IMG/VR virus record: IMGVR_UViG_3300045988_016154
Coordinates: 1 to 42,198 of that record
Origin: a virus
Reading direction: 5' to 3' (one strand)
DNA: 42,198 nucleotides
A program made the translations under genes and the position numbers. Below the pieces are notes generated by a model. The model did no database searches, was not told where the DNA came from, and worked only from the letters and a program-made list of their open reading frames with translations. Positions within the stretch are counted from its first letter, which is position 1. Each line of letters starts with the position of its first letter. Positions 1 through 42,198 of this stretch are shown here, piece by piece.

Positions 1-55
1 AGGTCTTCCCGGCCGGGACAAAGCGGTAGCCCTCGATATAGGCGGCGCACTTGCC
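1..55. repeat. Terminal overlap copy 1 (identical to 42144-42198)
   Basis: AGGTCTTCCCGGCCGGGACAAAGCGGTAGCCCTCGATATAGGCGGCGCACTTGCC is present at both window ends. Confidence 0.95.
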
Positions 56-1881: not shown

Positions 1882-3622
1882 AAACGTCACTGCCTTTCTC
1901 GTAGATTTTGGAAATGCTGTAGATTTGCATGGTCCCGAATCCTGTGATTCGAATCCGGAAGTGGTCACACCGTCGGGGCTTCACCGGCAGAATCTCGCTT
2001 TTGATTCGGTTCCCGGTGATGCTGCCGCAGGGCAGCCACTCCCCGTTGGAATCGTATTCGATGGAGAACTGTGCCGTGGCCCCGTCATCCAGTCTCAGCC
2101 GCACGGCAAACCGGCTCACATATTTTTGCCCTGCGTCTGAGTACCCGATGATATTGGTCGTCGCGCTCCATTGCACCCGCTTTTCTTTCGGCCCCGCTGC
2201 CTTTCCGGTAGCCCCCAGAAATTGCTTGGTGTCTGCGTCCAGAATGTAAAGCTCATCTAAAAGAGTAGCCATAGCCAGGGCGTGGGTGCTGTCCTCCTTC
2301 ACCCAAATGCCGTTCTTTGTGTCGTATACAAACAGGTTCCATCCAGTCTCCCCGTGCATGGATAGGTAGTATTTTCCCCGCAGGCTCCCGCCTACGGCCT
2401 CAGAGAATAGTTCATTCCCCAGGGAGTACCCCGTGTTCTCCGGCAGACTGCCGTCATACACGCATACACCGCTCCTGGACTTGAAATACAGCCTGTCGTT
2501 CACCACCTGTAAACTTCTGCTGCACCCTTCCTGCACGCCCTGGCAGGCCGTGTCCTGGATCTGGTGCGCCCCGCCCTCGTCCACATAGACCTTGTGCAGG
2601 TGGTTTTCTTTCCAGAAAAGGGGGTACCCGAGATAGGTGATAGCCCCCGTCCACCTGCCGTCCGTGCCCACGCTGGCCCGGTAACTGTCCGTGGAGATTC
2701 CGGCGTAGCGCTCCCAGTTCTTGAAGTCGCCCAGGGCGCAGCAGTAGATTTCATTGATTGTCTTCCCGTCAACCTGACCGTACTTGCAGCCCCATATCCG
2801 GTTCTGGCACTCGCACACGTAGTCCATATCCGGCATTTTCCGCTGCATCCGCAGTTTCCCAGCCGCCACCGTCACCGTCTGGGGTACAAGCCCAATGACC
2901 ACAACGCTGTCGGCGCTGACCCCATATAGAATCTTGCTGCCGTCCAGCTCTTCCTTCCCGGTGCCGGACAGGGTCACGCCGTCGTTCTCCGCGAACTGCT
3001 TCCCAATGCCTGTGCAGGCGATCTTACAGTAGACGGTTTCCACCGCCGCCCAGCTCCCAGTGCTCTCCGCCCAGACCTTCATAGCCTCCTTTTCCCCGGA
3101 GGTGTCCAGCCAGTATTGTCCGGCCTTTGGGTTCTCCGGAGCTGTGGCGGAGGCCGTGTAGTCATAGGCGGCCCCATCTGCCATGCACAGGCTTATGGTT
3201 GCCTCGCTGCCGCTTGTCCAGTCAGCTTCGATCTTCCCGCAGTCCGTATAGTCCTGGGTATTGATATAGGCCTTGTCCGGCAGAATCAGGATGTAAGCAC
3301 CCATGCTCACCAGCGTCTTCTCGCTGTCCGTCAGGTGTACCCCAGCATCGATCAGATGGTCCGTCAGGTCCTCGCCGCCATAGAACAGGTTTCGGTTGTC
3401 CACCCATACTAGCTTGTCCTTTGCCATCAGCCCATTGGGCTTTACCAGCACATCCAGCAGCGTCCGCTTTTCCCGGGAAGCCAGCAGGGGATAGTGGTCA
3501 GAAGTGAGATTCAGCATATCGGACATGGAGCCGTCTGTCCCTCTCAGATTTCTGTCCAGCCCCGGGAACTGCTGCGTCAGCTCCTCGCTGCGGCTTATTT
3601 CCGCCATTGTCGGCAGTCTCAT
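1871..3622 (-). CDS. Large virion structural protein (583 aa), possibly tail/nozzle-associated
   Basis: ORF 1871-3631 trimmed to ATG 3622, with AGGAGG 8 nt upstream. Follows the small head-completion-size genes. No catalytic motif recognised. Confidence 0.75.
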   Translation of the reverse strand: MRLPTMAEISRSEELTQQFPGLDRNLRGTDGSMSDMLNLTSDHYPLLASREKRTLLDVLVKPNGLMAKDKLVWVDNRNLFYGGEDLTDHLIDAGVHLTDSEKTLVSMGAYILILPDKAYINTQDYTDCGKIEADWTSGSEATISLCMADGAAYDYTASATAPENPKAGQYWLDTSGEKEAMKVWAESTGSWAAVETVYCKIACTGIGKQFAENDGVTLSGTGKEELDGSKILYGVSADSVVVIGLVPQTVTVAAGKLRMQRKMPDMDYVCECQNRIWGCKYGQVDGKTINEIYCCALGDFKNWERYAGISTDSYRASVGTDGRWTGAITYLGYPLFWKENHLHKVYVDEGGAHQIQDTACQGVQEGCSRSLQVVNDRLYFKSRSGVCVYDGSLPENTGYSLGNELFSEAVGGSLRGKYYLSMHGETGWNLFVYDTKNGIWVKEDSTHALAMATLLDELYILDADTKQFLGATGKAAGPKEKRVQWSATTNIIGYSDAGQKYVSRFAVRLRLDDGATAQFSIEYDSNGEWLPCGSITGNRIKSEILPVKPRRCDHFRIRITGFGTMQIYSISKIYEKGSDVCGY

Positions 3623-20166: not shown

Positions 20167-20375
20167 ACCTCTGCCCCCTTCTCTCTGAGCCAATTCATCA
20201 GGTCCACCCGGAAAATCTCCGTGTCCCGTCTGCCGCTCCGGCCTACCCTTTTGATACGCCCAAAGGGATAGGCCCCGCTCTCGATTCCTTCAGCGATCCC
20301 GGCGGCACTGCACCGGATTCCATAGGACCGCAAAATGTCCTCGCATTCGTGGAGTGTCACCGTCAGCTTATTCAT
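20163..20375 (-). CDS. Small putative DNA-binding protein (Xis/Cro-like) (70 aa)
   Basis: MNKLTVTLHECEDILRSYGIRCSAAGIAEGIESGAYPFGRIK...EIFRVDLMNWLREKG resembles excisionase/MerR-type winged-helix proteins. The call is tentative. Confidence 0.45.
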   Translation of the reverse strand: MNKLTVTLHECEDILRSYGIRCSAAGIAEGIESGAYPFGRIKRVGRSGRRDTEIFRVDLMNWLREKGAEV

Positions 20376-20532
20376 CCTGTTTCGCCTCCTTCTTTGCCAC
20401 CAGGGCCACCCCTGCCGCCAGCCCCTGGGCGTAGGCCTCCACCATGTTCACGGCGTGGCTTCTTGCCTCCTTGGGGATCTCGTTCAGCCCCTGGGCCGTT
20501 TCCTCTACGCTTTTCTTGACTTCTTCGCTCAT
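20368..20532 (-). CDS. Hypothetical small protein (54 aa), first ORF of the early unit
   Basis: ORF 20368-20679 trimmed to ATG 20532, preceded by GAAAGGAG. The longer version would run through the tRNA-like element. Confidence 0.55.
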   Translation of the reverse strand: MSEEVKKSVEETAQGLNEIPKEARSHAVNMVEAYAQGLAAGVALVAKKEAKQDE

Positions 20533-20575
20533 TATGTCAATGCTCCTTTCGTTTATCGTCTGCCCGCCTGGTTTA

Positions 20576-20594
20576 CCGCCCCGGGGCGGCTTTT
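20576..20594 (+). terminator. Plus-strand-oriented hairpin plus T-run
   Basis: CCGCC-CCGG-GGCGG followed by CTTTT on the plus strand only. Lies just beyond the start codon of the first early gene, where an antisense RNA from 19871-19899 would end. Confidence 0.4.
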
Positions 20595-20626
20595 CATGGA
20601 GGTTCGGCAGGTCCGTCTCCTGCCTA

Positions 20627-20693
20627 TGGTGGAGAGCGGCGGAATCGAACCGCCGCATATTACAGCTGCATTGATGCATCCCAGATGCTCCCC
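20627..20693 (-). ncRNA. 67-nt tRNA-like mini element resembling the tRNA-like domain of tmRNA
   Basis: Minus strand reads GGGGAGC AUCUGGGAU GCAU (15 nt) AUGC GGCGG UUCGAUU CCGCC GCUCUCC A CCA. It has a 7-bp acceptor stem with G3:U70, discriminator A and an encoded CCA. The T arm is canonical. There is no anticodon arm or D stem. Confidence 0.4.
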
Positions 20694-20707
20694 ATATACC
20701 TTTTTTC

Positions 20708-20736
20708 TTGCTTCACCCGCAAATCTGTGCTATCCT
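20708..20736 (+). promoter_or_regulatory. Candidate promoter of the YHYH gene
   Basis: TTGCTT, 17 nt, TATCCT, about 20 nt upstream of the AAGGAG RBS. Confidence 0.3.
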
Positions 20737-23212: not shown

Positions 23213-23500
23213 ATGAAAGAGAAACTCATGTCCACCCTCGGTGTCTTCGGCCTCATCCTCTACTATGTCTACAGCCTGTTCACCGCCTTTTTCCCCCTCT
23301 GGTTCCTGAATCTGCCAACCTGGGCCTTTTTCCTCCTGGTCATTCTTTTCCAATTTGTGCCTATGCTTTGCCCAATCGCCTGGGTTGTCGGCCTCTTTTT
23401 CGTTATCAAGGCCCCGCAAACAACCTTGTCCCTGGTCTATTACGTTCTGTTCGCATTGATCGTGCTGAAAACCTTTATCGGCGTTTTTAAGAGTAGGTGA
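23213..23500 (+). CDS. Small polytopic membrane protein (95 aa)
   Basis: Three hydrophobic segments. RBS AAAGGAG. The stop overlaps the integrase start (GTGA). Confidence 0.7.
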   Translation: MKEKLMSTLGVFGLILYYVYSLFTAFFPLWFLNLPTWAFFLLVILFQFVPMLCPIAWVVGLFFVIKAPQTTLSLVYYVLFALIVLKTFIGVFKSR

Positions 23501-24660
23501 ACATTTTGCAGTGCATCAAATGTAAAAAGGACATCCCCCAGGATGCCCTTTTTTGCCCTTATTGCGGAAAGAAGCAGCAAGCCCAGCGCAAACGCCGCAA
23601 GCGTGCCAATGGCATGGGCACCGTCTACAAGCACCCCGGTTCCCGTACCAAGCCCTGGGAAGCCCAGAAAGCCGGAATGCACATCGGCTACTACGCCACC
23701 CGCTACGAAGCCGAACAGGCCCTTGCCCGTCTGGCCGATACCGCCGTCTCTGAGAGCCTGAACATGACGTTCCGCCAGGTCTACGAAAAGTGGCTCCCAA
23801 CCCATAGCCGCAGCCTCACCGATAGCGGCGTAGCCGGTTATGCCTTTGCCTATGCCCACTGTGAACCCCTCTACGATTTGGTATTCCGGAAACTCCGTGC
23901 CAGTGACTTTCAATCTGTAATCAACTCTATGGAATCAGAGGGACTTTCCAAGTCCTCATGTGAAAAGGTGGTCCAACTGTTCAGCCAGCTCTCCCAGTGG
24001 GCCATCCAGGAGGAGATCGCCCATACCAACTACGCAAAATTCGTCACAGTCGCCGCCCCCCAGAAGTCCACCAAGGAAACCTTTACCGAAGCACAGATCC
24101 AGTCCATCCAAACCGCCGCAGCTCCCGCCGCCGACTTAGCCCTCATCCTCATCTCCACCGGCTGCCGCCCTAACGAACTGTTTTCAGCCCTGATTGAAAA
24201 CTGCCACGAAAACTATTTTATCTCCGGCTCCAAAACCAAAGCCGGTAAAAACCGTGTCATCCCCCTAAGCCCCCTCGGCCTCCCTGCCTACCAGAATCTC
24301 CTGGCCGAAGCCCAAAAAACCGGAAGCCCCCGCCTCATAGACGGCTACCCCGGCAACCGAGAATACCGAAACTTTGCAAAGCGGGACTGGAAGCAGCTCA
24401 TGGAGGAAATCGGCACCGACCTCTCCCCCTATTCCTGCCGCCATACCTTCGCCACCCTGGCCATCAAATCCGGCATAAAACCCGAACAGCTTAAACAAAT
24501 CATCGGCCACGCCAGCTACGCAACCACCGTAGATTTCTACAACCACACCAACGCCCAAGAGCTGGTAGCCGCCGCCCAAAAAATCACGGTTACAGTCACG
24601 TTACAGTCACAGAAAACCGCAGATAAAAAATCTACCTCAAAAAGTTCGGAAAACAAATAA
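23497..24660 (+). CDS. int: Tyrosine integrase with N-terminal zinc ribbon and arm-binding region (387 aa)
   Basis: CIKCKKDIPQDALFCPYCGKK. Catalytic-domain pattern ...GCRPNELF..., SCRHTFATLA, IIGHASYATTVDFYNH. Confidence 0.9.
   Translation: MNILQCIKCKKDIPQDALFCPYCGKKQQAQRKRRKRANGMGTVYKHPGSRTKPWEAQKAGMHIGYYATRYEAEQALARLADTAVSESLNMTFRQVYEKWLPTHSRSLTDSGVAGYAFAYAHCEPLYDLVFRKLRASDFQSVINSMESEGLSKSSCEKVVQLFSQLSQWAIQEEIAHTNYAKFVTVAAPQKSTKETFTEAQIQSIQTAAAPAADLALILISTGCRPNELFSALIENCHENYFISGSKTKAGKNRVIPLSPLGLPAYQNLLAEAQKTGSPRLIDGYPGNREYRNFAKRDWKQLMEEIGTDLSPYSCRHTFATLAIKSGIKPEQLKQIIGHASYATTVDFYNHTNAQELVAAAQKITVTVTLQSQKTADKKSTSKSSENK
24589..24610. repeat. Arm-type direct repeats, left (two tandem GTTACAGTCAC)
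   Basis: Tandem 11-mers at 24589-24599 and 24600-24610, inside the integrase 3' end. Confidence 0.6.
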
Positions 24661-24664
24661 AAAC

Positions 24665-24696
24665 GCCCCAGAATCATCAGATTCCAGGGCATTTTT
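24665..24696 (+). terminator. Integrase terminator (imperfect hairpin plus T5)
   Basis: GAATC-ATCA-GATTC with a flanking CCC/GGG extension, then ATTTTT. Confidence 0.5.
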
Positions 24697-24746
24697 GGTG
24701 ACCCGCCGGGGATTCGAACCCCGGACCCACTGCTTAAAAGGCAGTT
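24696..24746 (-). other. attP core: 3' 51 nt of a tRNA-Lys(UUU) (anticodon arm to CCA), not a complete tRNA gene
   Basis: Minus strand reads ACUGC CUUUUAA GCAGU GGGUC CGGGG UUCGAAU CCCCG GCGGGUC A CCA. No matching 5' acceptor strand or D arm is present; AT-rich DNA follows. Confidence 0.8.
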
Positions 24747-31442: not shown

Positions 31443-34400
31443 TTACCTCCAGGGCAGCTTCCGCAGCACGCTCTTTCTCGCCTTGGGGTATTCCGCCTGG
31501 AACAGGGCATCCTTCTGTTCCGCGCTGATGGGCATCGAATCAATGTACTCAATAACCTGTTCCTGCTTCGTGATATCCTCTTTCCCGTCGCCGTCCTCGT
31601 CAATGCTGGACAACTTCGAAACAGCCCGGATATAGCTGTCGTAGGTGTCCGCGGAGATTCCCGCCGGGTGGATGGTTTCGGCGTAGTCCAGATATCTCGC
31701 ATTGCTCCAGCTGATTTCGTCCCCCAGCTCCATCTCCGTATCCCACTGCAGAATCAGGTCGTCCAGCTCCTCATCCTCGGCAATGTCCGCCGCGGTAAGC
31801 ACCTTCCGCACCTGTGCCTCCGTCAGCTCTCCTGCAGCGTAGCCATCCTTGGCGTCGCTCTTGACATTGCTCTGGAAGGTCTTCAGCGCGTCCGATTCCG
31901 CCTCCTGTCGGGTCAGCTTCCCGTCCGCCTCCTGATTCCGGTCCGCCTGATAGCGGATCAGCTCCTTTTGCACGTCCCCGGCATATCCCAGACCGTTGGC
32001 GGCGGCGTTGACGTATTCGGAATAGTCGTACAGCTTTTCCGGAGGGCTTTCCTTGCCGCTCTGGGTCTTCTCCTTCATGCTGTTGGCCTTCTGGTTGATG
32101 GCCTTGATTACCTGATCCTGGGTGTAGTGCCCATCGGCCACGATTTCCCGGATGATAGCCACCCGCTTCGGCGTGTTCCCGTCGATGGCGTACTGTGCCG
32201 CCGTCTTGATTCTGGGGTCATTCTCCCGCAGACCCTTTAAGAGGGCGCTTTCGTACTTCTTCTCGTCCCCGAACAGGGCCTTCAGCCGTCTGGCAAGCAC
32301 ATCCTTCCCCTGGGTGATGGCCTTGTACAGCTGGTCGCTGCTGCTCTCGTCAGCCTTCCAGCTGAGGATCGGGAAGTTCTTCCGTGCGCTGTCCTTCATG
32401 GCCTTCAGCACGGTGTCGGCGTTCATCTCCGCCCCGTTGCTGGGGTTTCTTGCCGTATTGATAACTGCCTCCACGTCCCGCACAACGTTCTTCAGCGGCA
32501 GGCCCATAACCGTTCCAACCATCCACGCGTTGTCCAGCCATGCGGTACGCACCTTCTTTTTCCACGCATCCTTCTTCTCATCGCTCCACTCATCGTCATA
32601 CTTTCCGTACAGTGTCGTGATTTTCTTCAGCGCCGTTATCAGGTCAGAGGCAAGGCTCATGTCCGTCCGCTCGATGCTGTAGCCCAGAAGCAGGTTGTTG
32701 ATGTCCGACAGAACCGGGATGTAGGTCAGCGGATTGAGGGAATCCACGGTCTCCCCCGCAAGACTTGCCATGTATTTCTCCCAGTAAGTCTTGTCGTCGT
32801 CGTCATCTCTGGCCGCGTATACCACCGATGCCAGCGCCGCGTTCAGCACTGTCGCCACGGCCACACTGCTCAGAACCTTTCCCGCCATGCGCTTGTCGCC
32901 TCTGGCGAACTTCCGCACCGCGTCCTCCACCATGTTGGCCGTGGTGGTAGGCTCCGCCATGAAGGCCGTGGCCATGCTCATAAGCCCGCTCTTGGAACGC
33001 ATATTGGCGCTTCTTGAGAACACGGAATCATAAACCTGTGTCCGCGTAATGGTGTCCGTGAACAGCTCTCCGGCCTTTTGCAGAAGGGCCTCGCCCCTCA
33101 GCCCCGGGTTCTGGGCCGCCGTCTTCCGCTTCGCCGCCTCCCAGATGCCGCACCATGTCACCTGATCCGCCATCTCCGGCAGCCACCCGGAAAATTTATC
33201 CACCTTGTCCGTGATCTTCCCCCAGGTGCTGAGCCCGTTTCGCCCGATGATGTATTCCAGGGTGCTTCTGCCCATGTCCACGTCAAACCGGCCCATTTCC
33301 TTCAGGCCCGCCACAGCCGCGTATTTTTTTAGCTGCTTCCAGGTTTCGGCAAACTTCTTGCCCTCTACCTTGCTGCCGATAAAATACTTTGGTTCAATGT
33401 AGGCCAGTGCTCTGCCGACGGCGCTGGGCTGCTGAATGGCCACGGACAGGGAAGCGGAAACCGCCGCCTTCTTGAAGCCGCTCAGCATGGCTTTGCTCAC
33501 CGTCTCCCTGGGGTCTGCCCGCAGGCCGCCGTTCAGGTCTTTCAGGAACTGGTCGATGTAGTTCACCGCTCCCTTTCCCGCCGTCTTCTGGATCAGCTGC
33601 CGCACGCCCATGGTGCTCCTCACCGTGCCGTCGCCCTTCTGGTTCCAGTTGTACACCCGGTAGAAGTCCTCCATAGGCAGCGTGAAGGAATGGTACATGC
33701 TCATGTCGCTCACGTGCTCTGCCCAGGTCTCCGTCAGGGTGCTCAGCTCAATGGCGTTGTTTGCCTTCGGGGTCAGGGCCTTGGTGAATCCCTTGGTTTT
33801 CAGCTTGTTCCCGGGGTTGTCCTGCTGCGCCCGCACCCGCTCGGAGAAAACGTCGCTGGATTTCAGCGGCCAGTAGGTTTCCTCTCCGAACTTCTTAATG
33901 CCGTACAGCGCCATGTTCACCTCGTCGCCCTTGGCGCCCATGATCTTCGCCAGATACTGCTGCATCTCAAAGGCGAATTGCCGCTGCTCCTTGGTCAGGC
34001 TTCCTGCAATGGCATCAATGGTTTCATCCGTCAGCGTATAGGCGTTGGCATCGTTGTAGGTGGTCTCTCTGGTAACCCCCAGCGGTCCCTTGGTGAATCG
34101 TTTGGTGTTCTCTCCCAGCACAATGCCGCCCTTCGTCAGGTGCTCCCGTGCCTGGGGCCGCAGGCTGTAGGCGTACAGGCTCATAAGCTCGTCCAGGCTC
34201 AGCTGGAATTTCTGCCCGTTCGCCGCCGTGAACTCCTTCAGCTCGTTCAGATCCCACTTGCTGAAGCCGTTCTTTTCCGCAGATTCCAGGAAAAAGTTCC
34301 GCGCTTCCGACACATCCCGATAGAACGTATCCTCGCCCTTGCGCAGATTGTCGTACAGCTCGCTCATCACCGCGCTGCCGATTCGCTCAAAGGCGTATAC

Positions 34401-37400
34401 CGGCTTCTCATTGTTCCAGAAGAATTGGTCAATGTTTCTGCCTATTGCCGTCTGATTGGGGTTTTTCTTCTTCATCAGGCTCAGCTCAGTGGTTGCCCGC
34501 TTCACCATTTCATCGATCCGCGCATTCTTCCCCGCCACAAATGCCTTGTTGGCATTCCTTATGGTGGTCAGCAGCGCCGTGTAGCTGTCTCTCACGGCCT
34601 TGAGCTGCTGCAAGGAAAGATTCCGGTATTCCGTGTCGCCGATCTGCTCCATGGTGTTCTGGATCAGAGCCTCAATGTTGCTGTCGTACAGGCTGTCCCC
34701 CTGGGTTTCCAGCTTGTGGTATTGCTCTTGCAGTTCAGCCAGCGCCGCCTTCATGCTGCTGTCCTTGCCGGTCAGGTTCTGGATCTTGCGGTTCAGGTCT
34801 GCGATCTTGTCCCCGTTGGCGGAAGGATTCTTTTCCAGCTCCCGCAGCCGGTAGGCGTATTCCGCCAGCCTGTCCGCGTTCTGCGCCGCCTTGCTGTCTC
34901 CAATCACGCCGTTAATGGCCCGCAGAGCCATGGCAACGCTGCTCTGCAATCCCTGGGGCACATGGGCCGTGTTGGTGGGCTGCAAGAGGTACTTGTTCAG
35001 CGTGTCGATGGTGTTTTGCAGCTTGTGCCGTTCCTCGGTCTTCTTCCGGCTCTCCACCTTCTGCGCCGCCGCTTCCCGCTGCTGCTTCACCTTGGCTTCC
35101 AATTTCCCAATGTCCTTTTCCAGCTCATACTGCTGCCGGAGGTTTTCATAAACCTGCTTTCGGGAAGTCTCCGCGTCCTTGTTGCCATCCGATTTTTCAT
35201 TGGCAAGCTCCTTTAGCATTCTGCGGAGCGTCGGGCTTTTTGCGTCCTTGTATTCCTCGCTTTTCAGAGCTTCAAAAAATTCATTTTGGTAGGCTGCTGT
35301 GTCGGTGCTGTAGGTAGTACGCAGTTTCGCCATCTGGCGGTCATAGCTCAATTTTATTTCGTTTCTTTCCACCTCCCAGAGTGCCGCGTTGGCCTTATCG
35401 ATAGCCGCCTGGGCAGCCTTCATAGCATCAATTGCCGCGGCGCCTCTTTTCTTCTCGGCTTCCAGATCATAGGCGTGGCTCTTCTCCATGGCCGCCGCTT
35501 CCGCGTCCCACTCCTTGCGCAGCTGCTTGATTTCCCTCTTGTGCTGCTCCTTCAGCGTTTCCAGCTCCTTTTTCATGTTGTCGGAAACGCTTTCCATAGG
35601 CTTTGCTTCCAGATACCCCATAAGGATCTTCTGCATCAGGTCTGCTTTCTGCTCTGCCCGGTAGTATTGGAACTCTGCCTCGCTGCTGCTCTCGGTGCTG
35701 TTCGCCCAGCTCACAATTTGGGCCAGCCCGTCCGGCATATTGCTCTCCGTCACATCCGCCCCGAACCTGTCCGGGAACTGTGCTGCCGCTTCCTGCCACA
35801 GCTGGTCAAGGCTGGTTTCCGCGTTCTGGTCAAGAATAATGCTGCCCTTGATTGCCCGCTTGAAGTCGTTCAGGCTGCCGTATGTGTATTCAATGTCCCC
35901 GATCTGGCCGTCGCTCAGGCTCACCCGCCGTTTTTTCAGGAAGTCGAGAATATCCTGGGCGTAGCCGTCCCGCTCTGCCTGATGGTGTTCCAGCAGCCAA
36001 TCCGCCAGCTCTCCGGCCCTGTCCTGCATGGTTTCGTAGCTCATGTCCTCCGTGCCCAGCGCCCGATAGAAGTCGTTCAGCAGCTTGCCAAACTCGCCTC
36101 CCTTGGCGTTCACGCTTTCCATAAGCCCCTTGCCGATGGCGTTCACGGAGCTCCTGTCCAGAATGTGCGCCTTGTTCCCGCTTTTCTGAACATTTACCAC
36201 CTGTTTCAGGTACTCCGTCTCCGCCTTGAGTTCCGCGTTCTTCTTCTCCAACCGCTCCACCTGCCGGGATTGGCTGTTGCGGTCAGAATACCGCACATTT
36301 CCCTTGACTTCTGTGCCCTGCTGTGGTAGAGTGTCCTCAGAGGAATTCCCATGTATGACGTCAGGCGATTTATTCGTAGTAACGTCGGTTGGGGATTCCT
36401 CCTTTTGCATTTGAAAATGTGCTGGTTGGATATCCACTACGTCATAAAATACCGCAGTACCTTTGTCTGTAATTCCAACAACAACCTCTGCGGAATACTG
36501 GTTTTCTCCCGCTTTAATAAGAACTCTCCCATGGTCAAAATCCACAAAATTGTCCGTCCTGGGGTGCTTCAGTTTTCCGTCCCGCGCCCAATCCGTTGTG
36601 GCAATAACAACGTCATCAATTGCACTCGCTGTGCGCATCTTGTCTGCGAACAACTGTGGTGCTTTCTTAGAAAGCATTTCGGAATAATCCGAAGCTGCAA
36701 ATTCGCGGCGACTAACCCTGTTGACGTTTCTGGTAACGCCGTCCACCACAATTCCGTCACTGAATTTTTTCAGAGCTTCCTTTGCCGCAGCCTGAACCTT
36801 CTTTTTGGTCTGGTTGTTCCACTGCGTCAAATCAATATTGCTCAGAATGTCTTCATCAACCACAGCCACAGTTTTGCCGTCTGTAGTCCCCCGCAGCGAA
36901 TACCTCACGCCCTCCCGGGCGTTCTTTTTTTGCCCGTCCTGCAGCTGGTAGTTCTCCCCAGCCTCCGCTACCGCCTCGGCCCAGGCCTGGGCAATTTCCG
37001 TGTTGTCCTGCACCGCCCGCTTGAGCATCCGGCCAATGTCACTGTCCGGGTCACTGTCCTTATAGGCGTTTCGCAGCTTCTCCACAAGCCCTGTGAAAAA
37101 GTCCTTGATCTTCTGCCACAGCGTCCTGTCCTGCTCATAGATTTGCTGGGATAGCCGGTTGGCCGCGTCCGTGTCCGTCAGGATCGTCTCGCTCATCTCG
37201 GCAATGGTCTCGTCGTAGGCGATTTCCTGCAATTCCGTCTCGGAAAGCCCCTTGTATTCCTCCATCTCCGAAAGCCGCGCCATCTGCCGTGCAATCAGAG
37301 AATCATAACTGATGCCCTTGTTCTCCGCTGCCGCAATAATCATCTGCGCATAGGCTTCGTATTTGGCAGGGGAGTAGTCCTTGATAAAGTGTGTCGTCTC

Positions 37401-40400
37401 GTGGGCCAGCGCGTAGGCCACAGCACCCTGCCCGTTGTCGCCCGCGTTCAGGTCAATGGCAATGCTGCCGTCTGCCTTTCGGTAAACGCCATTTGGCTTC
37501 CCGGCCTTCCGCTCTGCCTCTGTGCTGGCGTATACCTCTACGTGCAGCCCAGCCGCCGCCAGCGCCTTGGCCGCTGCCATGCCGGTCTGCTGCTGCTTGT
37601 TCAGGCTTCGGATGCTCTTGGCGCTCTCCTGCATGGTAACGCCGCTCTCCCGCGTCCCGGCCTTTCCACTGTCGATCAGCGCTTCCTGCGCCTGCACCTT
37701 TGCCGCCCGCCGCTGCTTTCCGGCCTCCCAGGCGGCTCTCCGCTGGGTCTCCGGCAGCTTTGCAGCGTCCGAATATCCCGGGGTATCCTCAAATTTCACC
37801 CCGTTCATGCCCCGGTAATAGGCGTTCCGGATAGCCCGTGCATACGCCGCGCTGCTCAGCCCGCTGTCGTCAATGCCGCTCAGCAGGCTTCTGGCCGTCT
37901 CCGTGTCCGTCTGCATATTGCTGATGGCCGCGTAAACCGCAGCCTCTCCGCTGTTGCCGTAGGAAACGTCACTGGCCGCGATTTCCTGCCCGTCGTCCGT
38001 ATTCAGGTACAGAACCCCGTTCTCCACCTTGGCAATGGGTTCACTGGCAAGGATGTTAATGGGCTCGCTGTCGCTCTTTCTGAATGCCTGCCCGGAGTTG
38101 TCGCTGTCAAATTCCGCCTTTGTCTCCGGCGCAATGCCCAGCACACTGCCCTGCACATTTCCGATGGTTCGCATGGAGGCCTCCACACTTGGCTTTGCGT
38201 TCTCCTGCAAGGTCTCCTTGCCGCCCACGCTGTTCAGGATTTCCTGGGTCAGCTTCTCCCCGCCGATCATGCGCATATAGGCCTTGTCTCCCGGCAGCAT
38301 AGCCGTGCCGTCGTAGACCCTTGTCAGCACATTCAGCGCGTGCTTCTTGTTCTGAATGCCCCGCTGCCCTTCCAGGTACTTTTCGGCCGCCTTTCGGAAT
38401 TCTGCCGTCTCCGCGCCTCTGGCTTCCCGCCCTGCCTGCTGAGCGATCTGAGTTGCCACCTTGCCGGTCCGGTAGGTGTTCCGGAAGGACTTGTCCCCGG
38501 CGCTTGCCTTGTTTGCCACCTCGGCCGCCGCCTTTTGCAGCTTGGCCCGCTTCTTCTCGTTGGTCAGGCTCTCCGCCTGCTCCTGCAGGTCCACAGCCCG
38601 CCCGTTTTCCAGTAACTGGCTTCCGACGGCGTAATTGCCCACGGTACTGTGAACACGATTCACGCCGCTGCTGAGCGCCTGTCCTCCTGCTGCCATAGCC
38701 CCCGCAGAGATTGCGCCGCCATATCCTGCCCAGAGAATATCCACGGCGTTGTCCTTCCATACCTGCTGCCTGGCTTTCTCCTCGGTCATGCCCTGGGCCA
38801 TATATTCCCGCACCGCCATGGAGTTTTCGCTGTTCTTGCCCATGTTGATGGCGTCCAGAATGATGTTGCCCATCTCCGTGAACATCTCTTCAGAACCTTC
38901 CACGCCCATCTGAATGGCAAGTTTCTTCACAAACTCCCCGGCAGTCTTGGCAGGGTTATCCAGAATATTCGTAAAAAACACTTCCATGGAAACGTCCTCA
39001 AACAGCGCTTCCAGGATGCCGGAGCCAATGGAGCCGATTGCAATCTGCGTCGGTGTCGCGCCCTTCAGTTCAAGCTCCTGCGCTCTCTGGGCAAAGGCTC
39101 CCATGCCCATGACGGTGGTATATCCGCCCACATGGAAATTAAACGGCCCCGCGGGGAGTGCCAATCCCTGCCCGAAGGTCATAGCCCCCGCCATGCTGTC
39201 CACGCCGGACATCAGTGCCTGGAATGTCTGGTTTGCCAGGTTTCCGGCCTTCGCCGCGAACTGCTCCCCGAATTTGTCCGCCAGTTTGCTTTCCGTCCAG
39301 TCTCCGATATCCTGCCCAACGCTGCCCCGGATGTAAGAGGCGTACCGCTGGAAGAACTGCATGGAGCTGTAGGGGTTCGTCCGTCCCGTGACCATATCCG
39401 TGGTCTTTCCCAGCGCCGCCGGAATGGCCCCCACAAGGTTTGCGCCAACGCTCACCGCGGTCAGCCCGGCTTTCTCCCAGCTGTTTGCGTTCTCAATGGA
39501 CTGTACTGTCTTCAACTCATTCCGCCGGGAAAGCTCAATGTACATATCGTCCAGGTACTGGTTGGCGGCCTCCTGTCCCCGTTGTCCCTTGATATAGTAG
39601 TAGGTCTCTATCTCGTTGTCCGTCAGGAGGTCCCAGTACCCGTCATTCCCCGCCATGACGATGTTATTCAGCTGTACGTTGGAACTGCTCACGGCATCCT
39701 GTTTCTGCTCCGGTGTCAGACTCCGCCACAGGCCCAGCCGGTCCTCCGCCGTAGGCTCTGTGTCTCTGGTATACTGGATCGTTCCGGGAACATAGTCCGC
39801 CCGCTGTGCCTGGGCATCCTGCGCCGCCTGTTCCTCATTCTTCTTGTTCTCCCAGTCTACAATACTTTCATATCCTGGCCCCGTATAGCTAGTGTCCGTC
39901 CCCTTGGCCGCCGCAGCGTCCCCGGCATACTGGTCGATCTTCCCCCAGGTAGCGTTGTAGGCATCCATTCGGTTCCTTGCCCCAAGGAGGCTGTTCTCCG
40001 CATCGGTCATTCGCTTTTTTGCAGCCTGCCATTTTTCGGTGAGGTCCTTGTCATATTCGTCAATGGTGAAACTCCTGTAGCGGTCATCCATAGTCCGCCA
40101 CTCGGAATCAACCCGCTCGAATTCCTTTTTCGCCGCCGTATACTCCGCCAGCGCCCTTTGACTTTCCTGCGCATCCTTCTGGCTCTGCTGCTTCCGGATC
40201 TCCCGGGCCTCACTGTCGCTCAGCCCCCAGCTGCCCGCAGAGTACCCAACGCCGAAGTTCCCGTACCCGCTTCTCTGCCGGTCATAGTCGTCGCTGTCCC
40301 GGAATTTGGAATAGTACCCGTTCAGCTCCTGCATTTGCTTGTTGTAGCCCAGAAGCATATTCCGGTAGTCCGTCATGCCGCTTTTGTCGCCCTCATAGGC

Positions 40401-40706
40401 ATCGTATTCCCGCAGCAGCGCATTGATTTCCAGGCCGTTCCCACCGGTCACGTCCGCACTCCAACCGCCGTTTCGGCTTGCGTTGGCGCTGTCTACCCTT
40501 TGCAGCACATCCCATACTCTCTGATTGTAGTCCTGGGCAGGGGAGACCGCCTGTGTCCCGCCCTGCTTCTTGCTCATGAACTGCTGGTATGTGCTCATCA
40601 GGCCGCTGCCGGAGCTCTCCTTTTGAGTCTCCTGCTTCTGCGGTTCGCTCTGGACGCCCTGGGCGTTTTTCTCTTTGAACTTCTGATATGTCGAAAGCAG
40701 TGCCAT
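31443..40706 (-). CDS. Giant multi-domain virion protein (3087 aa), candidate ejected/polyvalent protein
   Basis: Single uninterrupted ORF. Gly/Ala-rich hydrophobic region (aa ~410-690). HETTH zinc-peptidase motif (aa 1102-1106). ~570-aa coiled-coil region. Hydrophobic helices at aa ~2405-2435 and 2608-2632. Lies in the late unit between a 308-aa structural gene and the collagen fibre. Confidence 0.85.
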   Translation of the reverse strand: MALLSTYQKFKEKNAQGVQSEPQKQETQKESSGSGLMSTYQQFMSKKQGGTQAVSPAQDYNQRVWDVLQRVDSANASRNGGWSADVTGGNGLEINALLREYDAYEGDKSGMTDYRNMLLGYNKQMQELNGYYSKFRDSDDYDRQRSGYGNFGVGYSAGSWGLSDSEAREIRKQQSQKDAQESQRALAEYTAAKKEFERVDSEWRTMDDRYRSFTIDEYDKDLTEKWQAAKKRMTDAENSLLGARNRMDAYNATWGKIDQYAGDAAAAKGTDTSYTGPGYESIVDWENKKNEEQAAQDAQAQRADYVPGTIQYTRDTEPTAEDRLGLWRSLTPEQKQDAVSSSNVQLNNIVMAGNDGYWDLLTDNEIETYYYIKGQRGQEAANQYLDDMYIELSRRNELKTVQSIENANSWEKAGLTAVSVGANLVGAIPAALGKTTDMVTGRTNPYSSMQFFQRYASYIRGSVGQDIGDWTESKLADKFGEQFAAKAGNLANQTFQALMSGVDSMAGAMTFGQGLALPAGPFNFHVGGYTTVMGMGAFAQRAQELELKGATPTQIAIGSIGSGILEALFEDVSMEVFFTNILDNPAKTAGEFVKKLAIQMGVEGSEEMFTEMGNIILDAINMGKNSENSMAVREYMAQGMTEEKARQQVWKDNAVDILWAGYGGAISAGAMAAGGQALSSGVNRVHSTVGNYAVGSQLLENGRAVDLQEQAESLTNEKKRAKLQKAAAEVANKASAGDKSFRNTYRTGKVATQIAQQAGREARGAETAEFRKAAEKYLEGQRGIQNKKHALNVLTRVYDGTAMLPGDKAYMRMIGGEKLTQEILNSVGGKETLQENAKPSVEASMRTIGNVQGSVLGIAPETKAEFDSDNSGQAFRKSDSEPINILASEPIAKVENGVLYLNTDDGQEIAASDVSYGNSGEAAVYAAISNMQTDTETARSLLSGIDDSGLSSAAYARAIRNAYYRGMNGVKFEDTPGYSDAAKLPETQRRAAWEAGKQRRAAKVQAQEALIDSGKAGTRESGVTMQESAKSIRSLNKQQQTGMAAAKALAAAGLHVEVYASTEAERKAGKPNGVYRKADGSIAIDLNAGDNGQGAVAYALAHETTHFIKDYSPAKYEAYAQMIIAAAENKGISYDSLIARQMARLSEMEEYKGLSETELQEIAYDETIAEMSETILTDTDAANRLSQQIYEQDRTLWQKIKDFFTGLVEKLRNAYKDSDPDSDIGRMLKRAVQDNTEIAQAWAEAVAEAGENYQLQDGQKKNAREGVRYSLRGTTDGKTVAVVDEDILSNIDLTQWNNQTKKKVQAAAKEALKKFSDGIVVDGVTRNVNRVSRREFAASDYSEMLSKKAPQLFADKMRTASAIDDVVIATTDWARDGKLKHPRTDNFVDFDHGRVLIKAGENQYSAEVVVGITDKGTAVFYDVVDIQPAHFQMQKEESPTDVTTNKSPDVIHGNSSEDTLPQQGTEVKGNVRYSDRNSQSRQVERLEKKNAELKAETEYLKQVVNVQKSGNKAHILDRSSVNAIGKGLMESVNAKGGEFGKLLNDFYRALGTEDMSYETMQDRAGELADWLLEHHQAERDGYAQDILDFLKKRRVSLSDGQIGDIEYTYGSLNDFKRAIKGSIILDQNAETSLDQLWQEAAAQFPDRFGADVTESNMPDGLAQIVSWANSTESSSEAEFQYYRAEQKADLMQKILMGYLEAKPMESVSDNMKKELETLKEQHKREIKQLRKEWDAEAAAMEKSHAYDLEAEKKRGAAAIDAMKAAQAAIDKANAALWEVERNEIKLSYDRQMAKLRTTYSTDTAAYQNEFFEALKSEEYKDAKSPTLRRMLKELANEKSDGNKDAETSRKQVYENLRQQYELEKDIGKLEAKVKQQREAAAQKVESRKKTEERHKLQNTIDTLNKYLLQPTNTAHVPQGLQSSVAMALRAINGVIGDSKAAQNADRLAEYAYRLRELEKNPSANGDKIADLNRKIQNLTGKDSSMKAALAELQEQYHKLETQGDSLYDSNIEALIQNTMEQIGDTEYRNLSLQQLKAVRDSYTALLTTIRNANKAFVAGKNARIDEMVKRATTELSLMKKKNPNQTAIGRNIDQFFWNNEKPVYAFERIGSAVMSELYDNLRKGEDTFYRDVSEARNFFLESAEKNGFSKWDLNELKEFTAANGQKFQLSLDELMSLYAYSLRPQAREHLTKGGIVLGENTKRFTKGPLGVTRETTYNDANAYTLTDETIDAIAGSLTKEQRQFAFEMQQYLAKIMGAKGDEVNMALYGIKKFGEETYWPLKSSDVFSERVRAQQDNPGNKLKTKGFTKALTPKANNAIELSTLTETWAEHVSDMSMYHSFTLPMEDFYRVYNWNQKGDGTVRSTMGVRQLIQKTAGKGAVNYIDQFLKDLNGGLRADPRETVSKAMLSGFKKAAVSASLSVAIQQPSAVGRALAYIEPKYFIGSKVEGKKFAETWKQLKKYAAVAGLKEMGRFDVDMGRSTLEYIIGRNGLSTWGKITDKVDKFSGWLPEMADQVTWCGIWEAAKRKTAAQNPGLRGEALLQKAGELFTDTITRTQVYDSVFSRSANMRSKSGLMSMATAFMAEPTTTANMVEDAVRKFARGDKRMAGKVLSSVAVATVLNAALASVVYAARDDDDDKTYWEKYMASLAGETVDSLNPLTYIPVLSDINNLLLGYSIERTDMSLASDLITALKKITTLYGKYDDEWSDEKKDAWKKKVRTAWLDNAWMVGTVMGLPLKNVVRDVEAVINTARNPSNGAEMNADTVLKAMKDSARKNFPILSWKADESSSDQLYKAITQGKDVLARRLKALFGDEKKYESALLKGLRENDPRIKTAAQYAIDGNTPKRVAIIREIVADGHYTQDQVIKAINQKANSMKEKTQSGKESPPEKLYDYSEYVNAAANGLGYAGDVQKELIRYQADRNQEADGKLTRQEAESDALKTFQSNVKSDAKDGYAAGELTEAQVRKVLTAADIAEDEELDDLILQWDTEMELGDEISWSNARYLDYAETIHPAGISADTYDSYIRAVSKLSSIDEDGDGKEDITKQEQVIEYIDSMPISAEQKDALFQAEYPKARKSVLRKLPWR

Positions 40707-41940: not shown

Positions 41941-42198
41941 TTATCCCTCCTCAATTGCAGCCAGGTCCTGGTTGTAAACGTCCTCCACCATACTGGCCAT
42001 GGCATCCACAAGCTCGTCATTCTGGGCCTCCAGCGCGGCGGCGCGCTCCCGCTCATAGGCCCGTTGGGCGGCGTCCAGCTCCGCCCAGGGCTTCCAGGGA
42101 GTAATCATTTCGCCGGAATACACCGTGCCGTCCGCTGCCGTCCAGGTCTTCCCGGCCGGGACAAAGCGGTAGCCCTCGATATAGGCGGCGCACTTGCC
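41941..42198 (-). CDS. 3' part of the junction-spanning 113-aa ORF (same gene as 1-139; nt 42144-42198 duplicate nt 1-55)
   Basis: Open to the window edge in the frame that matches the ATG at 139 once the 55-nt overlap is collapsed. Ends ...VEDVYNQDLAAIEEG*. Confidence 0.7.
   Translation of the reverse strand, partial: GKCAAYIEGYRFVPAGKTWTAADGTVYSGEMITPWKPWAELDAAQRAYERERAAALEAQNDELVDAMASMVEDVYNQDLAAIEEG
42144..42198. repeat. Terminal overlap copy 2 (identical to 1-55)
   Basis: Exact 55-nt match to the window start. Confidence 0.95.

What the first reader, a model, noticed from the sequence alone, without database searches (positions are those of the whole stretch)
20627..20693. 67-nt tRNA-like element with alanine identity that looks like a stand-alone tmRNA tRNA-like domain
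On the minus strand a 7-bp acceptor stem (GGGGAGC/GCUCUCC) containing G3:U70 is followed by discriminator A and an encoded CCA. A canonical T arm is present (GGCGG UUCGAUU CCGCC). Only 32 nt lie between acceptor and T stem, so no anticodon arm or D stem can form. Instead there is a 4-bp helix (GCAU/AUGC) closing a 15-nt loop. G3:U70 with A73 is the AlaRS identity set shared by tRNA-Ala and tmRNA. The segment after the acceptor (AUCUGGGAU) resembles the D-loop analogue of tmRNAs (AUUCUGGAU in E. coli). The topology (acceptor, D-analogue loop, short helix, T arm) matches a tmRNA tRNA-like domain with the mRNA/pseudoknot body deleted. It sits in the leader of the early unit, between the switch and the first early ORF. 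Speculative functions are an alanylatable decoy for SmpB, AlaRS or EF-Tu that perturbs trans-translation, or a relic of an ssrA-derived att site.
Basis: partly seen in the sequence, partly recalled or inferred. Interest (0 to 1): 0.65.

Follow-up and report, generated by a model that had tools for sequence, protein, structure and literature searches.

The report
Phage mini-tmRNA: tRNA-like domain only
A temperate gut-bacterial phage carries, at the very start of its early operon, a 67-base alanine-type tRNA look-alike with no anticodon arm. It matches the tRNA-like end of the ribosome-rescue RNA tmRNA, a kind of "decoy" gene reported once before in a mycobacteriophage, so it is a new variant of a rare known kind.

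Summary
Window 20693..20627 (−) encodes GGGGAGC/GCUCUCC (G3·U70), A73, CCA and a canonical T arm, with only 32 nt in between.

- **tmRNA match.** ARAGORN and Rfam at gathering thresholds miss it. On a small slice, Rfam's tmRNA model aligns it end to end at exactly these coordinates (24.5 bits, E≈1e-8), skipping the whole mRNA/pseudoknot body.
- **Positive control.** The published "TLD-only" tmRNA of mycobacteriophage DS6A behaves the same way (34.7 bits).
- **Other examples.** About ten similar minis turned up in IMG/VR viral contigs.
- **Not an att site.** A tRNA-Lys 3′ fragment next to the integrase fills that role.
- **Relatives.** In related Oscillospiraceae phages the same leader position holds interchangeable tRNA-like acceptor/T-arm modules of at least six sequence types. 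Their stems covary, but most lack G3·U70 and do not match tmRNA.
- **Missing motifs.** The window's element lacks the tmRNA-specific UUCGAC and GGAC motifs.

Best reading: a divergent TLD-only, alanine-accepting mini-tmRNA-like RNA, cut out of the early leader and acting in trans on SmpB, AlaRS or EF-Tu. The main rival is a generic tRNA-like processing module. Function is untested.

The parts
20627..20693 (-). Whole 67-nt anticodon-less tRNA-like element (type 'T4'): a TLD-only mini-tmRNA-like RNA gene
   Evidence: Sequence. RF00023 end-to-end match at exactly these coordinates, 24.5 bits, E=1.1e-8. Viral TLD-only model R1, 38.5 bits, E=5.4e-6.
20687..20693 (-). 5' acceptor strand GGGGAGC (G1-C7), preceded by UAUAU (U at -1, A at -4)
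   Evidence: AUAU or AU precedes the 5' end in module types T1-T5.
20678..20686 (-). D-loop analogue AUCUGGGAU: unpaired, with a GGG that could contact the T loop
   Evidence: Aligned to 'Au.cuGGaU' of the tmRNA model. A GG at this place is kept in all module types.
20655..20677 (-). Variable core. Either helix GCAU(20677-20674)/AUGC(20658-20655), or hairpin UGCA-UCAA-UGCA (20678-20667) plus a 12-nt linker
   Evidence: -22.1 vs -23.3 kcal/mol. The core GGGAUGCAUCAAUGCAGC is homologous to the core of T2 modules.
20638..20654 (-). T arm GGCGG UUCGAUU CCGCC
20627..20637 (-). 3' acceptor strand GCUCUCC (U70 at 20633), discriminator A (20630), encoded CCA (20629-20627)
20606..20624 (-). Leader hairpin 2 (GGCAGG-AGACGGA-CCUGCC), starting two bases after the CCA. 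It is conserved with covariation in relatives (CGGCGG...CCGCCG)
20598..20603 (-). ACCUCC motif, resembling an anti-Shine-Dalgarno sequence. It is conserved after hairpin 2 in the T4, T5, T6 and H-type leaders
20562..20590 (-). Leader hairpin 3 with loop GGCGGUAAA. Relatives have a perfect 10-bp covarying stem. In the window the two strands come from different lineages (a recombinant), so the stem is imperfect
20368..20549 (-). RBS AAAGGAG (20549-20543) and the first early ORF (54 aa, ATG at 20532). The 103-aa ORF starting inside the element is an over-extended call

Best explanation
The element is a phage-encoded RNA gene of the 'TLD-only tmRNA' kind. It consists of an alanine-identity acceptor stem stacked on a T arm, a stemless D-loop analogue and a short variable core. 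It has no anticodon arm and no tag-coding region. It is transcribed as the first module of the early (lytic) operon leader.

Inferred mechanism:
1. RNase P cuts at G1, where the leader reads AUAU|G.
2. 3' trimming back to the encoded CCA releases a ~67-nt RNA and leaves a hairpin-capped mRNA for the early genes.
3. AlaRS can charge the RNA, because G3:U70, A73, G2:C71 and G4:C69 are all present.
4. The RNA cannot supply a resume codon. It would therefore act in trans as a competitor for tmRNA/tRNA-Ala partners (SmpB, AlaRS, EF-Tu) and dampen trans-translation early after induction or infection.

Shown here: the sequence and structure class, the leader position, and the conservation of an acceptor/T-arm module at this position in relatives.
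Inferred, not shown: processing, charging, SmpB binding, and any effect on trans-translation.
For: - RF00023 aligns 5' and 3' ends at exactly 20627-20693 (-), skipping 328 model positions. The hit is E=1.1e-8 and the best in clan CL00001.
- The positive control behaves the same: DS6A 'TLD only', 34.7 bits.
- Literature: DS6A is listed as TLD-only, and a similar molecule strongly inhibits tmRNA whether or not it is chargeable. About 65-bp CDS-less plastid tmRNAs also exist.
- G3:U70 plus A73 is the AlaRS key and is conserved in all ssrA genes.
- About ten further anticodon-less G3:U70 minis occur in IMG/VR with the same topology. L104 (62 nt) has a 4-bp helix between the D-analogue and the T arm.
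- ARAGORN finds no cloverleaf.
- The element is not the att site: a tRNA-Lys fragment lies next to int.
- Relatives keep an acceptor/T-arm minihelix at the same leader position. Cells are 94% paired and 7 of 12 pairs show compensatory changes.
- There is no terminator between the element and the ORF on the minus strand.
Against: - The score is below Rfam's gathering threshold (24.5 vs 47).
- The tmRNA-specific 5' UUCGAC and 3' (G/A)GAC motifs, present in full tmRNAs, DS6A and most of the IMG/VR minis, are missing. SmpB binding is therefore doubtful.
- Sister modules (T1-T3, T5, T6) at the same position mostly have G3:C70 and some lack CCA. They do not match tmRNA, and many relatives have only a plain hairpin there. 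Alanine or SmpB mimicry therefore cannot be the function shared by the whole family.
- My TLD-only model is not specific: ordinary tRNAs score 27-42 bits.
- No promoter was identified, and there are no expression data.
- Only identical copies of the T4 type were found, so there is no covariation within the type.
Confidence: 0.45

Rival explanations
1. It is a generic cis-acting tRNA-like 'punctuation' module. The acceptor/T-arm/elbow minihelix serves only as an RNase P (and 3'-processing) signal that sets the 5' end, and so the stability or translation, of the early mRNA. The alanine identity of the window's copy is incidental, inherited from whatever tRNA-Ala or ssrA sequence it derives from.
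For: - The features shared by all six module types are a ~12-bp acceptor/T coaxial stack, a consensus T loop, a GG-containing linker, and mostly an ACCA tail. From established knowledge, these are the features RNase P measures.
- G3:U70 is not conserved, and some modules lack CCA.
- Tandem copies sit between upstream ORFs and the early ORF (L027, L043, L068).
- A conserved hairpin follows the CCA almost immediately.
- A similar minihelix lies in the leader of an unrelated phage ORF (L196).
Against: - Many close relatives do without any T-arm module (type H), so processing there is dispensable.
- The window's copy carries the complete AlaRS acceptor identity set plus an encoded CCA, and it is best matched by tmRNA. 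That is more than a processing signal needs.
Confidence: 0.3
2. It is a trans-acting decoy for a host defence or toxin that attacks tRNA acceptor ends or CCA tails, for example nucleotidyltransferase toxins of the MenT/AbiE type. It would be produced first after induction, and the interchangeable module types would reflect an arms race.
For: - It is the first element of the early transcript.
- This one locus shows extreme mosaicism, with at least six sequence types that keep only the acceptor/T-arm/ACCA features.
- Toxins that inactivate tRNA acceptor stems exist (PMC7450476, listed).
Against: There is no direct evidence. No linked anti-defence gene was identified, and some modules lack CCA.
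Confidence: 0.1
3. It is a non-functional relic: a degenerate tRNA-Ala or ssrA pseudogene, or the remnant of an old att site or recombination scar.
For: - Phages often carry tRNA or tmRNA fragments: 44 of 120 IMG/VR hits were 3' fragments.
- The leader region is highly recombinogenic; hairpin 3 in the window is a recombinant.
- Only identical copies of this type were found.
Against: - Both acceptor strands, a perfect 7+5-bp stack, a consensus T loop and ACCA are all intact, although about 300 nt of tmRNA (or about 10 nt of tRNA) are missing.
- Sister modules keep the same stems through compensatory changes.
- The real att-type fragment (tRNA-Lys) lies elsewhere, next to int.
- att relics carry only the 3' part.
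Confidence: 0.12

Closest known systems
TLD-only tmRNA of mycobacteriophage DS6A (tmRNA Website tmID 11587; Hudson et al. 2014, PMC4131195; Mao et al. 2009)
   Same: - Both are phage-encoded, with a 7-bp acceptor carrying G3:U70 and A73, a 5-bp T arm with loop UUCGAUU, a stemless D-loop analogue, and no tag ORF or pseudoknots.
- RF00023 aligns both end to end with the body skipped, and both score below the gathering threshold.
- Both lie in an intergenic gap at the head of a gene block and are missed by ARAGORN.
   Different: - DS6A keeps the tmRNA motifs GGUCGAC, a 5-6-bp P2a helix and GCAC before the T stem, has a 48-nt core, and does not encode CCA.
- The window element has a 32-nt core, lacks UCGAC and GAC, and encodes CCA.
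- The window element belongs to a set of interchangeable tRNA-like leader modules in Oscillospiraceae phages.
CDS-less (~65 bp) organellar tmRNAs (Mallomonadaceae plastids per PMC11915505; jakobid mitochondria from my own knowledge)
   Same: Reduced to about the size of the tRNA-like domain, with no tag reading frame.
   Different: They are cellular or organellar genes that work with a resident SmpB, not a phage leader element. They were not compared at sequence level here.
tRNA-Ala acceptor/TΨC minihelix (AlaRS substrate; Hou & Schimmel 1988 cited in PMC3968760; minihelix work listed)
   Same: A coaxial acceptor/T-arm helix with G3:U70 and A73-CCA is sufficient for alanylation in vitro (established knowledge).
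   Different: Minihelices are laboratory constructs. The window element is a natural gene with an extra 32-nt core.
Sister tRNA-like leader modules T1-T3, T5 and T6 in related phages
   Same: They occupy the same position upstream of the same 54/55-aa early ORF, with the same 12-13-bp acceptor/T stack, a consensus T loop, a GG linker and mostly an ACCA tail. T2 shares the core GGGAUGCR(U)CAAUGCRGC.
   Different: The acceptor sequences differ (UGGCGGC, GGGGGAA, GGGGGG). G3:U70 is absent or polymorphic and some lack CCA. There is no end-to-end tmRNA match.
mascRNA/MALAT1-type tRNA-like structures cut from longer transcripts (own knowledge)
   Same: This is a 'works-like' analogy for the processing step: a tRNA-like fold inside a longer transcript, recognised by RNase P, yields a small CCA-ended RNA and a processed long RNA.
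   Different: That system is eukaryotic, is not aminoacylated and is unrelated in sequence.

Membership tests
tmRNA tRNA-like domain (TLD-only / CDS-less tmRNA) | Acceptor stem formed by the 5' and 3' ends, with a G3·U70 wobble (conserved in all ssrA genes) | tested here: met
   GGGGAGC/GCUCUCC, 7 bp, G3·U70. The feature definition is from PMC3968760.
tmRNA tRNA-like domain (TLD-only / CDS-less tmRNA) | Discriminator A followed by a 3' CCA | tested here: met
   A at 20630 and an encoded CCA at 20629-20627.
tmRNA tRNA-like domain (TLD-only / CDS-less tmRNA) | tRNA-like T stem-loop (5 bp, loop UUCGAnU) | tested here: met
   GGCGG UUCGAUU CCGCC, aligned with posterior probability ~1 to the model's T arm.
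tmRNA tRNA-like domain (TLD-only / CDS-less tmRNA) | Reduced D-loop without a stem, carrying the GG that contacts the T loop | tested here: met
   AUcUGGGAU aligns to 'Au.cuGGaU', and no D stem is possible. The tertiary contact itself was not tested.
tmRNA tRNA-like domain (TLD-only / CDS-less tmRNA) | Conserved 5' (U)UYGAY after the GG, and (G/A)GAC immediately before the T stem (the base of helix 2) | tested here: not met
   Most of the 12 ARAGORN-called full tmRNAs, plus DS6A and most of the IMG/VR minis, carry these motifs. The window has GCAUC and AUGC instead.
tmRNA tRNA-like domain (TLD-only / CDS-less tmRNA) | A helix (H2/P2a) leaving the junction between the D-analogue and the T arm | tested here: inconclusive
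   A 4-bp GCAU/AUGC helix is possible (-22.1 kcal/mol), but a rival hairpin is slightly better (-23.3) and is the one supported by T2 homology.
tmRNA tRNA-like domain (TLD-only / CDS-less tmRNA) | Significant match to the curated tmRNA covariance model | tested here: inconclusive
   RF00023 gives 24.5 bits, E=1.1e-8, full-length, and is best in its clan, but falls below the gathering score of 47. The accepted DS6A TLD-only gene is also below it (34.7).
tmRNA tRNA-like domain (TLD-only / CDS-less tmRNA) | Alanylation by AlaRS, and binding of SmpB and EF-Tu | not testable with these tools
   Needs biochemistry.
Canonical tRNA (tRNA-Ala) | Cloverleaf with a D arm and an anticodon arm | tested here: not met
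   ARAGORN finds 0 genes. Only 32 nt lie between the acceptor and the T stem. The tRNA model is outscored by tmRNA within the clan.
attP-type tRNA/tmRNA 3' fragment | Only the 3' portion of the gene, adjacent to the integrase gene | tested here: not met
   Both acceptor strands are present and the element is 2.8 kb from int. A separate tRNA-Lys(UUU) 3' fragment (~24696-24746, minus strand) lies 36 nt after int.
Bacterial/phage Y RNA-like tRNA mimics (YrlA) | tRNA-like module attached to a Ro-binding helix, with a match to an Rfam model | tested here: not met
   Rfam gives no such match at any threshold. The acceptor ends in a free ACCA.

The most novel reading that the evidence does not exclude
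Temperate Oscillospiraceae phages carry, at the 5' end of their early operon, a swappable cassette of anticodon-less tRNA/tmRNA mimics. There are at least six sequence types, sometimes in tandem. They would be cut out by tRNA-processing enzymes and act in trans on host translation quality control or on acceptor-end-targeting immunity. The window's copy would be the alanine-accepting, tmRNA-TLD-like version. TLD-only mini-tmRNAs would then be a widespread and overlooked class of phage small RNAs rather than a DS6A curiosity.
Probability: 0.3. Interest if true: 0.8.

Novelty: new variant of a known kind. Interest (0 to 1): 0.6.

Why it matters
The papers read here name only one phage with a TLD-only tmRNA (DS6A), plus a few organellar cases. 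This element extends the kind to gut Clostridia (Oscillospiraceae) phages. A simple IMG/VR pattern scan also returned about ten more examples, so phage interference with trans-translation, or with alanine-tRNA partners, may be common. Standard annotators (ARAGORN, Rfam at gathering thresholds) miss all of these.

The element's place as the first module of the early leader, inside a family of interchangeable tRNA-like modules, gives a clean natural experiment. Swapping modules or mutating G3:U70 would test what such mimics do during the lysis-lysogeny decision.

Tried and rejected
- **Default detectors.** ARAGORN and Rfam at gathering scores found nothing on the window. A 701-nt permissive Rfam scan found only the T arm, because the filters dropped the full hit.
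- **Searches for relatives.** BLAST of the region against GenBank phages gave no match. The exact 28-mer of the 3' half is absent from IMG/VR. A search with the neighbouring 70-aa protein gave no relatives.
- **ATPase-based loci L002-L011.** None holds an acceptor/T-arm element. L001 was cut 82 nt upstream of the ORF. Its other contig end (L195) later showed a T3 module.
- **Promoter scan.** No sigma-70 consensus lies in the 61-nt spacer. The AUAU before G1 is too close to be a -10 box for a transcript that includes the acceptor strand.
- **att-relic hypothesis.** Rejected.
- **Protein-coding reading.** The 103-aa ORF that starts at 20679 inside the element is an over-extension. Relatives with the same 54-aa protein have unrelated upstream sequence and a conserved RBS.
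- **TLD-only covariance model R1.** It proved non-specific: tRNAs score 27-42 bits. I use it only as evidence of a well-formed acceptor/T-arm/ACCA molecule.
- **The ~480-nt insert of relatives.** Rfam finds nothing.
- **Host ssrA.** Recent capture from the host tmRNA gene is therefore untested.

Full report
**1. What is in the sequence**

On the minus strand, 20693..20627 reads GGGGAGC AUCUGGGAU GCAU CAAUGCAGCUGUAAU AUGC GGCGG UUCGAUU CCGCC GCUCUCC A CCA.
- The 7-bp acceptor stem (with G3·U70), A73, an encoded CCA and a canonical T arm are all as described. Only 32 nt separate the acceptor and T stems, so no cloverleaf can form.
- ARAGORN and Rfam at curated thresholds report nothing in the whole window.
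- Thermodynamic stability alone is unremarkable (z = -1.71).
- The proposed 4-bp GCAU/AUGC helix (-22.1 kcal/mol) competes with a hairpin UGCA-UCAA-UGCA (-23.3 kcal/mol).

**2. Context**

- The window is a circularly assembled 42.1-kb genome with 55-nt identical ends.
- The element lies in the 222-nt divergent intergenic region. On one side is a plus-strand lysogeny block: a secreted protein, two HTH repressor-like proteins, a small membrane protein and a tyrosine integrase at 23497-24660.
- On the other side is the minus-strand early operon: a 54-aa ORF starting at 20532, small ORFs, an SMC/AAA ATPase and an MBL-fold protein.
- A typical att-type fragment, the anticodon arm to CCA of a tRNA-Lys(UUU), sits 36 nt downstream of int (about 24696-24746, minus strand). 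The finding's element is therefore not the attachment site. It also has both acceptor strands, which att relics lack.
- No terminator separates the element from the ORF on the minus strand, and no sigma-70 consensus promoter was found in the 61-nt spacer.
- A related prophage occurs in an Oscillospiraceae MAG.

**3. Relatives**

GenBank phages and IMG/VR hold no near-identical copy. Contigs encoding the same or a homologous first early ORF gave about 60 loci.
- One independent assembly has the identical element (L024).
- In the others, homology to the window begins only 3' of the element, at about 20611. The leader is modular.
- Many phages carry other acceptor/T-arm modules at the same place:
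  - T1: 47 nt, with a 10-nt linker.
  - T2: a 39-nt linker containing a hairpin.
  - T3.
  - T5.
  - T6: has an anticodon-like arm and no CCA.
- Some phages carry these modules in tandem (L027, L043, L068). Others have a plain GGGG...CCCC hairpin instead (type H).
- T2 and the window's T4 share a homologous core, GGGAUGC(A/G)(U)CAAUGC(A/G)GC.
- I counted pairs across module types on stems that I spliced together myself. 94.4 % of cells pair and 7 of 12 pairs show changes on both sides. 0 of 500 shuffles reach the observed values, and the slid controls are far lower.
- G3:U70 is present in the window and in a few T1/T2 alleles. Most sister modules have G3:C70. A few modules lack CCA.

**4. Comparison with tmRNA**

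The literature already lists a phage 'TLD only' tmRNA, in mycobacteriophage DS6A. It reports that such a molecule strongly inhibits tmRNA in E. coli, chargeable or not, perhaps by titrating SmpB. About 65-bp CDS-less plastid tmRNAs are also reported.
- I located the DS6A gene at JN698994 28478-28560 and used it as a positive control. On a 161-nt slice, RF00023 aligns it full-length with 312 positions skipped (34.7 bits, E = 7e-13).
- The same test on window 20600-20720 gives an RF00023 hit at exactly 20627-20693 (-). It scores 24.5 bits, E = 1.1e-8, spans model positions 1-374 with 328 skipped, and is the best family in the tRNA/tmRNA clan. AUcUGGGAU aligns to the D-loop analogue.
- Both hits are below the gathering score of 47, as expected for genes that lack the body.
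- Sister modules do not behave this way. T3 gives only a weak tRNA-Sec-like hit, and T2 only a T-arm hit; T5 and T6 produced no tRNA-clan hit at all.

**5. How common are such minis?**

- ARAGORN classed 33 as tRNA-Ala, 11 as tmRNA and 19 as other tRNAs. Of the 57 uncalled hits, 44 had no nearby 5' acceptor strand (3'-fragment type) and 13 did, of which about ten look like real minis. These have a 7-bp G3:U70 acceptor, GG(N)UUCGAC, one short helix, GGAC, a T arm and ACCA. Examples are L104 (62 nt) and L113 (78 nt).
- They sit in intergenic gaps of varied modules, for example between the prohead protease and major capsid genes, and not next to integrases.
- A covariance model built from nine of them, without the window, ranks the window element first among 96 kb (38.5 bits, E = 5.4e-6).
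- That model is not specific, since ordinary tRNAs score 27-42 bits. It shows only that the element is a well-formed acceptor/T-arm/ACCA molecule.
- Full tmRNAs and most of the minis keep a 5' (U)UYGAY and a 3' (G/A)GAC motif that the window element lacks.

**6. Interpretation**

The structural reading is well supported. This is an anticodon-less, alanine-identity tRNA-like RNA whose nearest curated family is tmRNA, with the topology of a TLD-only tmRNA. I file it as a divergent variant of that known kind, not as a proven member, because one defining motif pair was tested and not met. SmpB and AlaRS interactions cannot be tested here.

The mechanism is inferred, not shown. The RNA would be excised from the early leader by RNase P; U at -1 and A at -4 fit known leader preferences (own knowledge). 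3' trimming would stop at the encoded CCA. AlaRS would charge it, since G3:U70, A73, G2:C71 and G4:C69 are present; the identity rules are from PMC3968760. It would then compete for tmRNA/tRNA-Ala partners.

The strongest rival is that all the leader modules, this one included, are simply tRNA-like processing signals and that the alanine identity is incidental. A decoy against acceptor-end-targeting toxins, and a non-functional relic, are less likely but not excluded.

**7. Verdict**

- Novelty: a new variant of a known but rare kind, embedded in a previously undescribed family of interchangeable tRNA-like leader modules.

Noticed in passing
window ~24696-24746 (-), 36 nt downstream of int (23497-24660): The 3' part of a tRNA-Lys(UUU) gene, from the anticodon arm ACUGC-CUUUUAA-GCAGU through the T arm to ACCA. 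This is the likely attP core, so the phage probably integrates into a host tRNA-Lys gene.
   Followed up: partly
window 1-55 and 42144-42198: An identical 55-nt direct repeat at both ends. It is an assembly overlap of a circular (or terminally redundant) 42,143-bp genome.
   Followed up: no
L013 ~2465-2945 (also L012-L016, L018-L020, L026, L028-L030, L042, L046-L049): A conserved, GC-rich insert of about 480 nt, bounded by a 26-nt inverted repeat (TTGCCTGCAAACCTGAGTTGCCCGGG ... CCCGGGCAATTCAAGTTTACAGGCAA). It lies just upstream of the early leader in many relatives and is absent from the window. It could be a MITE or a large structured RNA. Rfam finds no match, and gene callers place a doubtful 153-aa ORF in it.
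   Followed up: partly
window 20562-20590 (-); relatives e.g. L013, L051, L042, L061: A 10-bp hairpin with the conserved loop GGCGGUAAA lies about 12-15 nt before the RBS. Its stem covaries among relatives (GCCGCCCCGG, GCCCGCCUGG, GCCCGCCCGG, GCCUGCCCGG). It resembles a protein-binding (boxB-like) hairpin. In the window the 5' and 3' strands come from different lineages, so the stem is imperfect.
   Followed up: partly
window 20598-20624 (-): Hairpin GGCAGG/CCUGCC (CGGCGG/CCGCCG in relatives, loop containing GAGAC) is followed by a conserved (A/G/U)ACCUCC that resembles an anti-Shine-Dalgarno sequence. It could sequester the RBS.
   Followed up: no
L027 ~1405-1470, L029, L068, L195/L025: An insertion of about 60 nt (two hairpins) follows the 3' acceptor strand of T2/T3 modules directly and is flanked by a duplicated GCCG(C/U)CAA. 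It looks like a target-site duplication. It moves the ACCA tail 60 nt away.
   Followed up: no
IMG/VR loci L081, L085, L095, L104, L113, L133, L157, L165, L178: Anticodon-less G3:U70 'TLD-only' tmRNA-like minis of 62-88 nt in unrelated viral contigs. ARAGORN misses them or, for L113, over-calls a 303-nt tmRNA. L085 and L095 lie between the prohead protease and major capsid genes.
   Followed up: partly
L193 ~40-120 (contig end): A T arm, 3' acceptor strand and A, then AUUUAU, then a 5' acceptor strand and AUCUGGGAU. This is the gene order of a permuted (two-piece) tmRNA.
   Followed up: no
L196 ~2960-3040 (-); L191/L192/L194: Other short acceptor/T-arm minihelices without CCA, in leaders of unrelated phage ORFs. 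L191, L192 and L194 share the same AUCUGGGAU linker.
   Followed up: no
window 20368-20679 (-): The automatic gene call on the source contig (103 aa) starts at an AUG inside the tRNA-like element. The conserved RBS and the relatives indicate the true start is at 20532 (54 aa).
   Followed up: yes
window 31443-40706 (-): A single 3087-aa ORF, unusually large for a 42-kb phage genome. It was not examined.
   Followed up: no
L045 ~1230-1265: A near-consensus promoter, TTGACA-17-TATATT, lies about 270 nt upstream of the early ORF and upstream of the conserved 'CAGTTTACAGGCAAGAGAAGGAAAAAGCAA...ACATTTGA' block. That block may therefore be transcribed leader rather than promoter.
   Followed up: no
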